A DNA stretch of 64,000 bases, taken from Escherichia coli (GTDB lineage: Bacteria; Pseudomonadota; Gammaproteobacteria; Enterobacterales; Enterobacteriaceae). Below, one piece after another: positions 19,114-19,651 of the stretch (within the stretch, counting starts at the first letter, position 1; every line of letters starts with the position of its first letter). Made by a program: the position numbers and the translations under genes. The DNA lies in NCBI RefSeq assembly GCF_046105845.1, contig NZ_CP151004.1; one strand, written 5' to 3'. The notes beneath the pieces were generated by a model. It ran no database searches, was not told the origin of the DNA, and saw only the letters and a program-made list of their open reading frames with translations.

Positions 19114-19493
19114 AATGAATCCTTTTTCGATCTATGAGAATAAATACTCATTTAAGGGTGAAAACATTTTGCCTGCAAATGATTATCAGGAAATATAACA
19201 TTATCGAAGTATTAAAATTAACAACTATTAAATAATATTAAACATTTTTAACGTAAACATTAAGAATATTCATCTTGTTATCTGTCTGTATTTTAACCAG
19301 AATTAAATCAGTATTAGATGCCGTATGAATATCTCGAAATGTTGCTGTGTATCACATACAAATCATCACCGCAGGACCATAGTATTTACATAAGGTTTGT
19401 CCCCCGGAGGTAGTCATCGCAGCAATCGAGTAAATTAGCTTCACCACGGTATATTGTTTCCGTAGAATACCCATAATTATAAGAGAGGTTGTT

Positions 19494-19553
19494 ATGATTG
19501 AACGTGAACTGGGGAACTGGAAAGACTTTATCGAAGTTATGCTTCGTAAGTAA
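19494..19553 (+). CDS. ypfM: Small protein YpfM (19 aa)
   Basis: ATG at 19494 preceded by AGAGAGG; MIERELGNWKDFIEVMLRK; below the ORF-track size cut-off. Confidence 0.7.
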   Translation: MIERELGNWKDFIEVMLRK

Positions 19554-19613
19554 TTCCTGAGACAAAGTACAAACAGCAAGAACCCGCTGAGCAGGTTCTT
19601 AATCGGAAAGTTG

Positions 19614-19648
19614 AAAAAGGCGACACATTGGCATGTCGCCTTTTTTAT
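19614..19648. terminator. Bidirectional intrinsic terminator between ypfM (+) and acrD (-)
   Basis: aaaaaggcgacacattggcatgtcgcctttttt: GC stem flanked by A-run and T-run, directly after acrD stop (19652). Confidence 0.8.
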
Positions 19649-19651
19649 TGC

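What the first reader, a model, noticed from the sequence alone, without database searches (positions are those of the whole stretch)
19114..19651. AT-rich 538 bp spacer holding the 19-codon ypfM and two tandem hairpins
Between yffB and acrD lies an AT-rich stretch containing a 19-codon ORF with a good ribosome-binding site (AGAGAGG, ATG at 19494; MIERELGNWKDFIEVMLRK). It is followed by two hairpins: agaacc-N9-ggttct (19579..19601) and a strong bidirectional terminator (19614..19648). The coding part is short relative to the structured 3-prime region, which raises the possibility that the transcript also has an RNA-level role.
Basis: partly seen in the sequence, partly recalled or inferred. 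Interest (0 to 1): 0.3.

Follow-up and report, generated by a model that had tools for sequence, protein, structure and literature searches.

The report
Known small-protein gene ypfM, ArcZ partner
The spacer holds the already catalogued 19-amino-acid gene ypfM, with its own promoter and a terminator shared with acrD; its mRNA does meet small RNAs (mainly ArcZ), but through its coding region rather than its 3' hairpins, so the finding is real but ordinary.

Summary
The yffB-acrD spacer is 538 bp and 24-27% GC in its left part. It holds a 19-codon ORF (19494..19553) behind AGAGAGG, a stem-loop (19578..19600) and a strong intrinsic terminator (19613..19646) 5 nt from the acrD stop.

All of this is known. 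RefSeq annotates "protein YpfM", mass spectrometry detects the peptide, and the Salmonella orthologue is Rfam STnc250, an Hfq-bound small mRNA.

The ORF, its Shine-Dalgarno sequence and a sigma-70 promoter (TTCACC-17-TAGAAT) are conserved in 64 of 80 yffB loci across Enterobacterales. The terminator shows compensatory changes. Hairpin 1 is specific to a few lineages.

Published CLASH and RIL-seq data link ypfM mRNA to ArcZ (13 hybrids; 2829 chimeric fragments). The pairing site lies at codons 5-8. There I find frozen synonymous positions: Gly7 is GGG or GGA in 47 of 47 sequences and never GGY, whereas Gly15 is GGY in 21 of 22.

The mRNA behaves as a target (sRNA score 0.009), and the 3' hairpins are not implicated.

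In passing, a deeply conserved CRP/FNR-like site with a -10-like hexamer about 150 nt upstream suggests a second, regulated ypfM promoter. Novelty: already known.

The parts
19191..19201 (-). Conserved AATATAACATT block. On the minus strand it reads TGTTATATT, an extended -10 for yffB-dapE, implying a TSS near 19184 (inferred).
   Evidence: Invariant among Escherichia, Salmonella and Citrobacter. In Salmonella it lies where a -10 for a TSS at -97 should be, and -97 is the 5' end of the yffB::gfp fusion in PMC5137417.
19342..19355 (+). Conserved CRP/FNR-family-like site, TTGCT-N4-ATCAC, centred at 19348.5. Candidate activator site for a distal ypfM promoter P2 (inferred).
   Evidence: TTGC and TCACAT are at least 90% conserved in 44 of 65 ypfM loci and lie at a fixed 150-166 nt from the ATG. 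The geometry fits a class II site at -41.5.
19378..19383 (+). -10-like hexamer CATAGT of candidate promoter P2, implying a TSS near 19390 (inferred).
   Evidence: CATAGT or CATATT is conserved 22 nt after the site. The predicted Salmonella transcript of about 222 nt matches the roughly 220 nt northern band.
19416..19435 (.). Conserved block ATCGCAGCAATCGAGTAAAT just upstream of the P1 -35 element. It could be an UP element or a transcription-factor site; its identity is unknown.
   Evidence: Consensus AATCACAGCAATCGGTTAAAT across genera.
19440..19468 (+). Proximal sigma-70 promoter P1 of ypfM: -35 TTCACC, 17-nt spacer, -10 TAGAAT, TSS near 19475.
   Evidence: It is the only promoter-like match in the scan. 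Shimada 2014 assign the same hexamers to ypfM from RpoD genomic SELEX (PMC3946193). Both hexamers are conserved in nearly all orthologues.
19475..19493 (+). 19-nt A-rich leader carrying the Shine-Dalgarno sequence AGAGAGG (19482-19488).
   Evidence: CATAAT(A/T)ATAAGAGAGG is nearly invariant across about 30 genera.
19494..19553 (+). ypfM ORF: 19 codons plus TAA, peptide MIERELGNWKDFIEVMLRK.
   Evidence: RefSeq annotates it as protein YpfM, WP_001386977.1. The ORF is conserved in 64 of 80 loci. The peptide is detected by mass spectrometry.
19508..19516 (+). Core of the ArcZ pairing site: ACUGGGGAA (+15..+23) pairs with ArcZ UUCCCUGGU. The same UUUCCCUGG motif occurs in SdsR.
   Evidence: The CLASH mRNA fragment TATGATTGAACGTGAACTGGGGAACTGG gave 13 hybrids and the pair is also listed in RIL-seq. 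The duplex was predicted. Synonymous positions in the site are frozen.
19554..19650 (+). ypfM 3'UTR, about 93-97 nt.
   Evidence: It runs from the stop codon to the end of the terminator T run. Its length is 55-115 nt in orthologues and its middle is variable.
19578..19600 (.). Hairpin 1 (AAGAACC-CGCTGAGCA-GGTTCTT). It is lineage-specific, and the strand on which it functions is undetermined.
   Evidence: Fold statistics are. The stem is shared by other Escherichia species and by Buttiauxella, with an AAGAGC/GCTCTT compensatory variant, and is replaced by unrelated stems or absent elsewhere. There is no strand bias across orthologues.
19613..19646 (.). Bidirectional intrinsic terminator shared by ypfM (plus strand) and acrD (minus strand).
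   Evidence: Searches give the scan and fold results. The alignment has 11 consensus pairs, 7 with compensatory changes, in 46 sequences. A convergent acrD C-terminus is present in 62 of 64 ypfM loci.

Best explanation
The right-hand third of the spacer is a self-contained monocistronic gene for the 19-aa protein YpfM.

- A strong sigma-70 promoter (TTCACC-17-TAGAAT) starts transcription near 19475.
- A 19-nt A-rich leader with AAGAGAGG drives translation of the ORF (19494..19553).
- The roughly 95-nt 3'UTR ends at an intrinsic terminator (19613..19646). Its A-tract, stem and T-tract symmetry also terminates the convergent acrD.
- Predicted E. coli transcript: about 176 nt.

The mRNA associates with Hfq because it pairs with Hfq-dependent sRNAs, chiefly ArcZ. 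The ArcZ seed UUCCCUGGU pairs with ACUGGGGAA at codons 5-8 (19508..19516), at the edge of the region covered by an initiating ribosome. ArcZ therefore most likely lowers YpfM synthesis or mRNA stability.

Shown here or in published data: the gene, the peptide, the promoter motif, the terminator, Hfq association, the ArcZ chimeras, and nucleotide-level constraint at the pairing site.

Inferred: the TSS position, the direction of ArcZ regulation, and the mechanism by which it acts.

Hairpin 1 is a lineage-specific accessory stem-loop, not a conserved RNA domain. The AT-rich left part of the spacer is divergent promoter and regulatory DNA for yffB-dapE and ypfM, and is bound by H-NS.
For: Annotation and identity:
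- RefSeq lists ypfM / protein YpfM at this position, and about 5400 E. coli genomes carry the region.
- Rfam RF01409 STnc250 hits 19533..19652 at 37.5 bits, E 2e-5. The syntenic Salmonella and Citrobacter loci score 112.9 and 97.1 bits.

Literature:
- STnc250 corresponds to the ypfM ORF, is called a "small mRNA gene", is enriched 4x in Hfq co-IP (24 versus 6 reads) and gives a band of about 220 nt (PMC2515195).
- YpfM is detected by top-down, DIA and PRM mass spectrometry with 100% coverage and formyl-Met (PMC12529367).
- RpoD genomic SELEX places a promoter in this spacer, to which the authors assign TTCACC-17-TAGAAT for ypfM, and marks an H-NS site there (PMC3946193).

Comparative analysis:
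- The ORF is present in 64 of 80 yffB loci, from Escherichia to Dickeya, Pantoea and Hafnia. The -10, leader and Shine-Dalgarno sequence are nearly invariant.
- The terminator has 11 consensus pairs, 7 with compensatory changes.
- A convergent acrD is present in 62 of 64 ypfM loci.

ArcZ:
- CLASH found 13 ArcZ-ypfM hybrids in exponential and transition phase, and the pair is also listed in RIL-seq.
- RIL-seq gives 2829 chimeric fragments with a single partner. That partner's features (96 interactions, SIC 0.921) are those of ArcZ. The sRNA score of ypfM is 0.009.
- Gly7 is GGG in 43 and GGA in 4 distinct sequences, and never GGY. Gly15 in the same ORF is GGY in 21 and GGG in 1. In yffB from the same genomes GGG makes up 14% of Gly codons.
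- The third base of Leu6 is a purine whenever the rest of the site is intact (CTG, CTA, TTA), which keeps the pair with an ArcZ U.
- Third-position identity to E. coli at synonymous codons is 0.81 in ypfM against 0.57 in yffB.
- RNAalifold finds no conserved intramolecular structure in the leader plus ORF that could explain this constraint instead.
Against: - No TSS or 3'-end mapping data for E. coli ypfM could be retrieved. The Term-seq supplement had no entry and the dRNA-seq paper is not held.
- The predicted Salmonella transcript from P1 is about 147 nt, which does not match the reported band of about 220 nt. Either the gel estimate is loose or a distal promoter is used.
- The ArcZ-ypfM duplex energy (-15.5 kcal/mol) is no better than against shuffled mRNA: mean -15.8, and 265 of 500 shuffles are as good. 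The site therefore rests on the experimental chimeras and on conservation.
- The Fisher test on Gly codons is not corrected for phylogeny. About 32 genus-level groups all show GGR.
- The direction and size of ArcZ's effect on ypfM were not found in any accessible paper.
- In RIL-seq, 31% of ypfM chimeras have ypfM as the second RNA. That is higher than for most pure targets.
Confidence: 0.85

Rival explanations
1. Dual-function RNA. Besides encoding YpfM, the abundant short ypfM transcript acts as a sponge or decoy that titrates ArcZ (and possibly SdsR or UhpU), or as a base-pairing regulator in its own right.
For: - ypfM accounts for about 10% of all ArcZ chimeric fragments in exponential-phase RIL-seq (2829 of 28271).
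- 31% of those chimeras have ypfM in the sRNA-like second position (SIC -0.688 with k=1).
- The transcript ends in a terminator with a 6-U tail and is enriched in Hfq co-IP.
- The pairing site is constrained at the nucleotide level across genera.
- An SdsR chimera and chimeras with the uhpT 3'UTR also exist.
Against: - The RIL-seq-based classifier gives an sRNA score of 0.009, with one or two partners that are themselves sRNAs.
- No ypfM 3'UTR entity appears in that table.
- No published phenotype or target was found.
- Conservation of the site is explained equally well if ypfM is simply a regulated target.
Confidence: 0.13
2. Hairpin 1 works on the minus strand. It is a back-up terminator or insulator for acrD read-through that protects ypfM from antisense transcription, rather than a part of the ypfM RNA.
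For: - In the window the minus-strand fold is 5 kcal/mol stronger (-14.5, z -4.4, against -9.6, z -2.5). A C·A mismatch on the plus strand becomes a U·G pair on the minus strand.
- The scan flags it as terminator-like on the minus strand, followed by CTGTTTGT.
- In Enterobacter and Leclercia the analogous minus-strand hairpin is followed by TATGGTTATTTT, whereas on the plus strand these hairpins are followed by A-runs.
Against: - Across 58 orthologues there is no strand asymmetry: mean -5.6 against -5.5 kcal/mol, Wilcoxon p 0.58.
- The U-tracts are weak.
- Several genera have no such hairpin.
Confidence: 0.25
3. Hairpin 1 plus the terminator form an Hfq-binding module (stem-loop, linker, terminator with U tail). 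The ypfM 3'UTR would then be, or would give rise to, a 3'UTR-derived sRNA.
For: - The tandem-hairpin architecture recurs. A small hairpin just upstream of the terminator is enriched among orthologues: mean z -1.66, and 36% have p<0.05.
- Rfam files the 3' part as "STnc250 Hfq binding RNA".
- A UUCCNG motif just after the stop codon and an AGCAAGA(G/A)C motif further into the 3'UTR are semi-conserved.
Against: - The hairpin sequences are unrelated between genera, and the hairpin is absent in Klebsiella, Cedecea, Dickeya and others.
- No 3'UTR fragment appears as an RNA in the RIL-seq table.
- The CLASH and RIL-seq fragments map to the 5' part of the mRNA.
- The discoverers re-classified STnc250 as a small mRNA.
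Confidence: 0.06
4. The ORF is fortuitous and the transcript is a purely non-coding sRNA.
For: The ORF has only 19 codons. The locus was first predicted as an orphan promoter-terminator pair and sRNA candidate.
Against: - The peptide is conserved in 64 loci, with synonymous variation at D11, F12, I13 and K19, and with amino-acid substitutions concentrated at positions 4 and 15.
- The Shine-Dalgarno sequence and start codon are invariant.
- The intact peptide, including its formyl-Met form, is detected by mass spectrometry.
Confidence: 0.01

Closest known systems
ypfM / protein YpfM (E. coli b4606; RefSeq WP_001386977.1)
   Same: Identical 19-aa sequence, the same position between yffB and acrD, and the same strand arrangement.
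   Different: Nothing; this is that gene. Its function is still unknown. No paper in the searchable library assigns one.
Rfam RF01409 STnc250 "Hfq binding RNA" (Salmonella)
   Same: Orthologous locus. The model covers the last 6 codons, the 3'UTR and the terminator. It is matched over its full length (1-94) at E 2e-5.
   Different: The score of 37.5 bits is below the gathering score of 42. E. coli has 37 nt, including hairpin 1, where the model has 13 nt. Salmonella and Citrobacter score 113 and 97 bits. The family name suggests an sRNA, but the discoverers call it a small mRNA.
yneM/mgtS (STnc570) and other short monocistronic small-protein mRNAs
   Same: Found in the same Hfq co-IP screen as a stable short mRNA encoding a peptide of fewer than 34 aa. 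It likewise has its own promoter and terminator.
   Different: From my own knowledge, MgtS is a membrane protein with a known role in Mg2+ homeostasis. YpfM is charged and amphipathic with no predicted transmembrane segment, and its role is unknown.
Dual-function sRNAs (SgrS/SgrT, AzuCR/AzuC, Spot 42/SpfP)
   Same: A short Hfq-associated transcript with an intrinsic terminator that also encodes a translated small protein.
   Different: No trans-acting base-pairing target of ypfM is known. Its RIL-seq profile is target-like (sRNA score 0.009), and its partners are sRNAs.
Bidirectional intrinsic terminators between convergent genes
   Same: An A-tract, a GC-rich stem and a T-tract that fold well on both strands (z -4.6 and -6.7). 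The terminator lies between two convergent genes.
   Different: Nothing unusual. The stem sequence AAAAAGGCGAC/GTCGCCTTTTT is notably conserved across genera.

Membership tests
YpfM small-protein gene | A 19-aa ORF with the YpfM sequence, preceded by a Shine-Dalgarno sequence | tested here: met
   MIERELGNWKDFIEVMLRK is 100% identical to the annotated YpfM. AGAGAGG lies 5 nt upstream of the ATG.
YpfM small-protein gene | Synteny: between yffB-dapE and acrD, convergent with acrD | tested here: met
   A convergent acrD is present in 62 of 64 orthologous loci.
YpfM small-protein gene | Evidence of translation | not testable with these tools
   Literature only: mass-spectrometry detection with formyl-Met (PMC12529367). 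SPA-tag detection by Hemm et al. 2008 is from my own knowledge; that paper is not held.
Rfam RF01409 STnc250 | Covariance-model score at or above the curated gathering score (42 bits) | tested here: not met
   37.5 bits, E 2e-5, full-length match. E. albertii scores 43.1, Kosakonia 44.2, Salmonella 112.9 and Citrobacter 97.1.
Rfam RF01409 STnc250 | Orthology with the seed locus (acrD/yffB intergenic region, overlapping the ypfM 3' end) | tested here: met
   The Salmonella locus L018 has the same ORF, synteny and terminator. Sittka Table 2 gives the flanking genes as acrD/yffB.
Hfq-dependent trans-acting sRNA | Intrinsic terminator with a U tail of at least 5-6 U | tested here: met
   Stem at -18.7 kcal/mol followed by UUUUUU.
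Hfq-dependent trans-acting sRNA | Binds Hfq | not testable with these tools
   Literature: 4x co-IP enrichment in Salmonella, and presence in Hfq CLASH and RIL-seq in E. coli.
Hfq-dependent trans-acting sRNA | Hub behaviour: many mRNA partners, and mostly second in chimeras | tested here: not met
   From the published table: 1-2 partners, which are themselves sRNAs; second in 31% of chimeras; classifier score 0.009, against at least 0.1 for most known sRNAs, the authors' candidate cut-off.
Dual-function (coding plus base-pairing) RNA | Demonstrated regulatory effect of the RNA that is independent of its protein | not tested
   No such experiment was found. It needs start-codon mutants compared with pairing-site mutants.
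Bidirectional intrinsic terminator | A GC-rich stem flanked by an A-tract and a T-tract, stable on both strands, between convergent genes | tested here: met
sRNA-regulated mRNA (ArcZ target) | Experimental sRNA-mRNA chimeras and a conserved complementary site | tested here: met
   Chimeras come from the literature. The site at 19508-19516 and its synonymous-site constraint were tested here.
sRNA-regulated mRNA (ArcZ target) | A change in expression on sRNA deletion or overexpression, with compensatory mutations | not tested
   No accessible data. The supplements of PMC7059120 and PMC5145812 are not held as text.

The most novel reading that the evidence does not exclude
ypfM may be more than a passive target. 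It could be a conserved bifunctional node in an oxygen or carbon-status circuit, in three ways.

- Its short, abundant mRNA could act as a decoy that buffers ArcZ (and SdsR, which shares the UUUCCCUGG motif), while also encoding YpfM.
- Transcription could be partly driven from a previously undescribed distal class II CRP/FNR-type promoter (site at 19342-19355, -10 at 19378-19383) that is conserved in at least 15 genera.
- YpfM's tight synteny with acrD (62 of 64 loci) could reflect a small-protein partner of the AcrD pump, as AcrZ is for AcrB.
Probability: 0.12. Interest if true: 0.5.

Novelty: already known. Interest (0 to 1): 0.2.

Why it matters
As submitted, the finding re-discovers an annotated gene. 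It correctly guesses that the transcript meets the Hfq network, which was already shown in 2008 and in later interactome data.

Its residual value is modest but concrete.

- YpfM is one of the most easily detected E. coli small proteins, yet it still has no function.
- The data assembled here give testable handles on it: a precisely located and evolutionarily frozen ArcZ pairing site, a candidate regulated upstream promoter, and strict linkage to acrD.

These could guide experiments on when and why YpfM is made.

Tried and rejected
- **ArcZ duplex energy as evidence.** The score of -15.5 kcal/mol is no better than against shuffled mRNA, so it was dropped as support.
- **Conserved intramolecular structure as the cause of synonymous constraint.** RNAalifold on 59 distinct leader+ORF+22 nt sequences gives no consensus structure.
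- **Strand of hairpin 1 from G·U versus C·A asymmetry across orthologues.** There is no bias.
- **Hairpin 1 as a conserved RNA domain.** Rejected. It falls in an insertion relative to the Rfam model and is replaced by unrelated stems or is absent elsewhere.
- **A second small ORF at 19325..19393** (MNISKCCCVSHTNHHRRTIVFT), which overlaps the conserved upstream block. Rejected as coding. Differences between genera are mostly non-synonymous, Salmonella has ATT in place of ATG, and one Citrobacter has an early stop.
- **A 6-codon "AUC...UAA" mini-ORF after a conserved GGAGG (19406-19435).** Rejected. It lacks a canonical start codon and its variation is not codon-like.
- **A structured long leader from the putative P2.** Folding 19390-19530 gives z 0.08.
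- **Known RNA families in the AT-rich part.** Only noise-level hits at E up to 10.
- **Literature that gave nothing.** The Term-seq supplement has no ypfM entry. The Salmonella intramacrophage RIL-seq supplement has none. No supplement text is held for PMC5145812, PMC11347178 or PMC7059120. The Hemm 2008, Hemm 2010 and Hemm 2020 papers and Thomason 2015 are not held.
- **Within-species covariation in hairpin 1.** E. coli is too uniform; the few SNPs are in the loop or the 3'UTR.
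Full report
**Observation**

The window is E. coli. The 538-bp spacer matches 5425 of 5426 complete E. coli genomes (best identity 99.6%), and the 176-nt ypfM transcript region is 100% identical in many of them.

The spacer runs from 19114 to 19651. It lies between the start of yffB (minus strand, 18757..19113) and the stop of acrD (minus strand, 19652..22765). GC falls to 0.24-0.27 at 19100-19400, against 0.5-0.6 in the flanking genes.

- The 19-codon ORF runs from 19494 to 19553 and encodes MIERELGNWKDFIEVMLRK.
- AGAGAGG lies at 19482-19488.
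- Hairpin 1 is AAGAACC/GGTTCTT at 19578..19600. It folds at -9.6 kcal/mol (z -2.5) on the plus strand and -14.5 kcal/mol (z -4.4) on the minus strand.
- The terminator stem spans 19613..19646 and is followed by six T. It folds at -18.7 kcal/mol (z -4.6) on the plus strand and -18.0 (z -6.7) on the minus strand.

**What it is**

RefSeq annotates the ORF as ypfM, "protein YpfM".

Rfam RF01409, "STnc250 Hfq binding RNA", matches 19533..19652 over the full model at 37.5 bits, E 2e-5. That is just under the gathering score of 42. The shortfall arises because E. coli has 37 nt, including hairpin 1, where the model has 13 nt. The syntenic Salmonella and Citrobacter loci score 112.9 and 97.1 bits. E. 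albertii scores 43.1.

Sittka et al. 2008 found STnc250 in Hfq co-IP sequencing, with 24 reads against 6 in the control (4-fold). They saw a band of about 220 nt with growth-phase-dependent expression. [quoted passage not shown]

YpfM is among the small proteins most readily detected by mass spectrometry. It reaches 100% coverage top-down, carries formyl-Met, and is quantified by PRM (PMC12529367).

**Promoter and leader**

The only sigma-70-like match in the region is TTCACC-17-TAGAAT at 19440..19468. Shimada et al. assign the same hexamers to ypfM from RpoD genomic SELEX, and they mark an H-NS site in the spacer (PMC3946193). This places the TSS near 19475. It gives a 19-nt leader and a transcript of about 176 nt.

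**Comparative analysis**

I fetched 80 loci around yffB orthologues from one genome per species.

- A YpfM ORF lies upstream of yffB, on the opposite strand, in 64 of them. They range from Escherichia, Salmonella, Citrobacter, Enterobacter, Klebsiella and Kosakonia to Pantoea, Dickeya and Hafnia. The consensus is MI[ED]xE[LMV]G[NQH]WK[DSA]FI[ED]xMLRK.
- The -10 hexamer, the -35-like TTCAC(A/C), the leader CATAATAATAAGAGAGG and the start codon are almost invariant.
- Amino-acid changes concentrate at positions 4 and 15.
- 62 of the 64 ypfM loci have the convergent acrD C-terminus 72-254 nt beyond the ypfM stop. Of the 16 loci without ypfM, only one has it.

**The two hairpins**

The terminator is universal. 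An alignment of 46 distinct sequences gives 11 consensus pairs, 7 of which show compensatory changes, for example GGCGAC/GTCGCC to GGCGGC/GCCGCC and to GCAGCC/GGCTGC. Its A-tract, stem and T-tract symmetry, its position 5 nt from the acrD stop, and its good folds on both strands make it an ordinary bidirectional intrinsic terminator.

Hairpin 1 is different.

- It is shared by other Escherichia species, where the stem is longer.
- A similar AAGA(A/G)C...G(T/C)TCTT stem occurs in Buttiauxella and Cedecea.
- Salmonella and Citrobacter have an unrelated ATCC..GGAT stem. Enterobacter and Leclercia have GTGTGA..TCACAC. Klebsiella, some Raoultella, Dickeya and others have none.
- A small hairpin just upstream of the terminator is statistically enriched: mean z -1.66, and 36% of loci have p<0.05. 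Its sequence is not conserved.
- Comparing the two strands across 58 loci shows no bias (Wilcoxon p 0.58). In this window alone the minus strand folds 5 kcal/mol better and is followed by a weak T-rich tract.

I conclude that hairpin 1 is a lineage-specific accessory stem-loop. Whether it stabilises the ypfM 3' end or backs up acrD termination cannot be decided from sequence.

**RNA-level role**

Published interactome data show that ypfM mRNA is a prominent sRNA partner.

- Hfq CLASH lists ArcZ-ypfM with 13 hybrids in exponential and transition phase and flags the pair as also present in RIL-seq. The mRNA fragment is TATGATTGAACGTGAACTGGGGAACTGG.
- There is one SdsR-ypfM hybrid and one ChiX hybrid further upstream (PMC7213987).
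- In the RIL-seq feature table of Bar et al., the ypfM CDS has 2829 chimeric fragments with a single partner. That partner's parameters (96 interactions, SIC 0.921) are those of ArcZ. This is about 10% of all ArcZ chimeras.
- ypfM is second in the chimera in 31% of cases, and its sRNA score is 0.009.
- A separate entry, ypfM.5UTR, has 140 fragments with the uhpT 3'UTR RNA (PMC8175672).

RNAduplex places the core helix at ACUGGGGAA (19508..19516, +15..+23), paired with ArcZ UUCCCUGGU. The duplex energy is no better than against shuffled mRNA, so the argument rests on the chimeras and on conservation.

The conservation is striking.

- Third-position identity to E. coli at synonymous codons is 0.81 for ypfM against 0.57 for yffB in the same genomes.
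- Gly7 is GGG in 43 and GGA in 4 distinct sequences, and never GGC or GGT.
- Gly at position 15 of the same ORF is GGC or GGT in 21 of 22 sequences.
- GGG makes up only 14% of Gly codons in yffB. Fisher's test gives 8e-17, uncorrected for phylogeny, and about 32 genus-level groups agree.
- Leu6 varies among CTG, CTA and TTA. All three keep a purine opposite an ArcZ U. A pyrimidine at this position appears only where the site is otherwise lost, as in Dickeya.
- RNAalifold finds no conserved intramolecular structure that could explain this instead.

The most economical reading is that ypfM mRNA is a conserved ArcZ target. The site lies at the downstream edge of the ribosome-binding region, so repression is the likely outcome. 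This last step is inferred and was not shown in any paper I could access.

A decoy or sponge role, or a genuine dual function, is not excluded, and I give it about 0.13.

**The rest of the spacer**

Aligning the spacer among Escherichia, Salmonella and Citrobacter shows discrete conserved blocks in otherwise free AT-rich DNA.

- AATATAACATT at 19191-19201 reads TGTTATATT on the minus strand, an extended -10. It sits exactly where a TSS at -97 of Salmonella yffB requires a -10, and -97 is the 5' end used for the yffB::gfp fusion in the SdsR study (PMC5137417).
- More notable is the element tttcAAAATATTGCnGTnnGTCACATnAAATTT followed 22 nt later by CATAGT or CATATT. It is present in 44 of 65 ypfM loci at a fixed 150-166 nt from the ATG.
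- In the window the half-sites are TTGCT (19342-19346) and ATCAC (19351-19355), centred at 19348.5, and CATAGT lies at 19378-19383.
- This is the geometry of a class II CRP/FNR-family site at -41.5, with a TSS near 19390.
- Such a distal promoter would give a transcript of about 222 nt in Salmonella, which matches the reported band of about 220 nt. P1 predicts about 147 nt.

This promoter is an inference that I rate at roughly 0.4. I could not retrieve any TSS data. The putative long leader is not significantly structured (z 0.08).

**Verdict**

The finding is accurate and its central guess is half right. Everything essential is already in databases and in the literature.

New here, at the level of inference, are:

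- the nucleotide-level freezing of the ArcZ site across Enterobacteriaceae;
- the lineage-specific nature of hairpin 1;
- a candidate conserved distal promoter.

Novelty: already known. Interest: 0.2.

Noticed in passing
window 19336-19383: A deeply conserved element, AAAATATTGC-N-GT-NN-GTCACAT-N-AAATTT, followed 22 nt later by CATAGT or CATATT. It occurs in 44 of 65 ypfM loci at a fixed 150-166 nt from the ypfM ATG. The geometry fits a class II CRP/FNR-type site at -41.5 of a distal plus-strand promoter with a TSS near 19390. That would explain the roughly 220 nt STnc250 band in Salmonella.
   Followed up: partly
window 19406-19435: A conserved GGAGG, then the block ATC(A/G)CAGCAATCG(G/A)(G/T)TAAAT directly upstream of the P1 -35 element. 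It could be an UP element or an unknown transcription-factor site. It superficially resembles a 6-codon mini-ORF, but the variation is not codon-like.
   Followed up: partly
window 19191-19201 (minus strand): The invariant AATATAACATT reads TGTTATATT on the minus strand, a likely extended -10 of yffB-dapE. This differs from the TTCATA-16-TTTAAT (19329-19302) that Shimada 2014 proposed. In Salmonella, yffB is a validated SdsR target and is derepressed in a fur mutant. Both divergent genes of this spacer therefore touch the SdsR/ArcZ-type sRNA network.
   Followed up: partly
window 19585-19593; locus L083 1618-1632: The top of hairpin 1, CGCTGAGCA, matches the IS10/Tn10 target consensus NGCTNAGCN (consensus recalled from my own knowledge). 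In E. coli strain c1-17 an IS4-family ISVsa5 element is inserted exactly there, splitting hairpin 1 and separating ypfM from its terminator.
   Followed up: partly
window about 19310; locus L082 525-1222: An IS1 copy sits in the AT-rich part of the spacer, about 190 bp upstream of the ypfM ATG, in strains HUE1, ZH142 and ET82. It would separate the candidate distal promoter region from yffB.
   Followed up: no
loci L002-L081: ypfM and a convergent acrD co-occur in 62 of 64 loci. Of 16 yffB loci without ypfM, only 1 has acrD. Dickeya has ypfM without acrD. This may be plain synteny, or a functional link like that of the small protein AcrZ with AcrB.
   Followed up: partly
window 19554-19560 and 19573-19583: A semi-conserved UUCCNG or UUYCAG motif lies immediately after the stop codon. 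It resembles the ArcZ seed and is complementary to CUGGAA in the ORF. A second motif, AGCAAGA(G/A)C, lies about 20 nt into the 3'UTR in many genera. No function is assigned to either.
   Followed up: no
window 19542-19544 (Leu17): Leu17 is the non-preferred CTT in 37 of 49 distinct ORFs. It closes the small GAAG...CUUC stem drawn in the Rfam STnc250 model. This is a second synonymous constraint that ArcZ pairing does not explain.
   Followed up: no
window 19494-19550 (peptide): The hydrophobic residues I2, L6, W9, I13 and M16 follow a 4-3-4-3 spacing. This suggests an amphipathic, coiled-coil-like helix with charged faces. There is no transmembrane segment, unlike most E. coli small proteins. 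At 19 aa the peptide is too short for the structure and family tools.
   Followed up: no
window 19310-19339: One CLASH hybrid joins ChiX to a plus-strand fragment at this position. The fragment lies upstream of both proposed ypfM start sites and inside a conserved block (AGTATTAGA...GTATGAATAT). The source of this transcript is unexplained.
   Followed up: no
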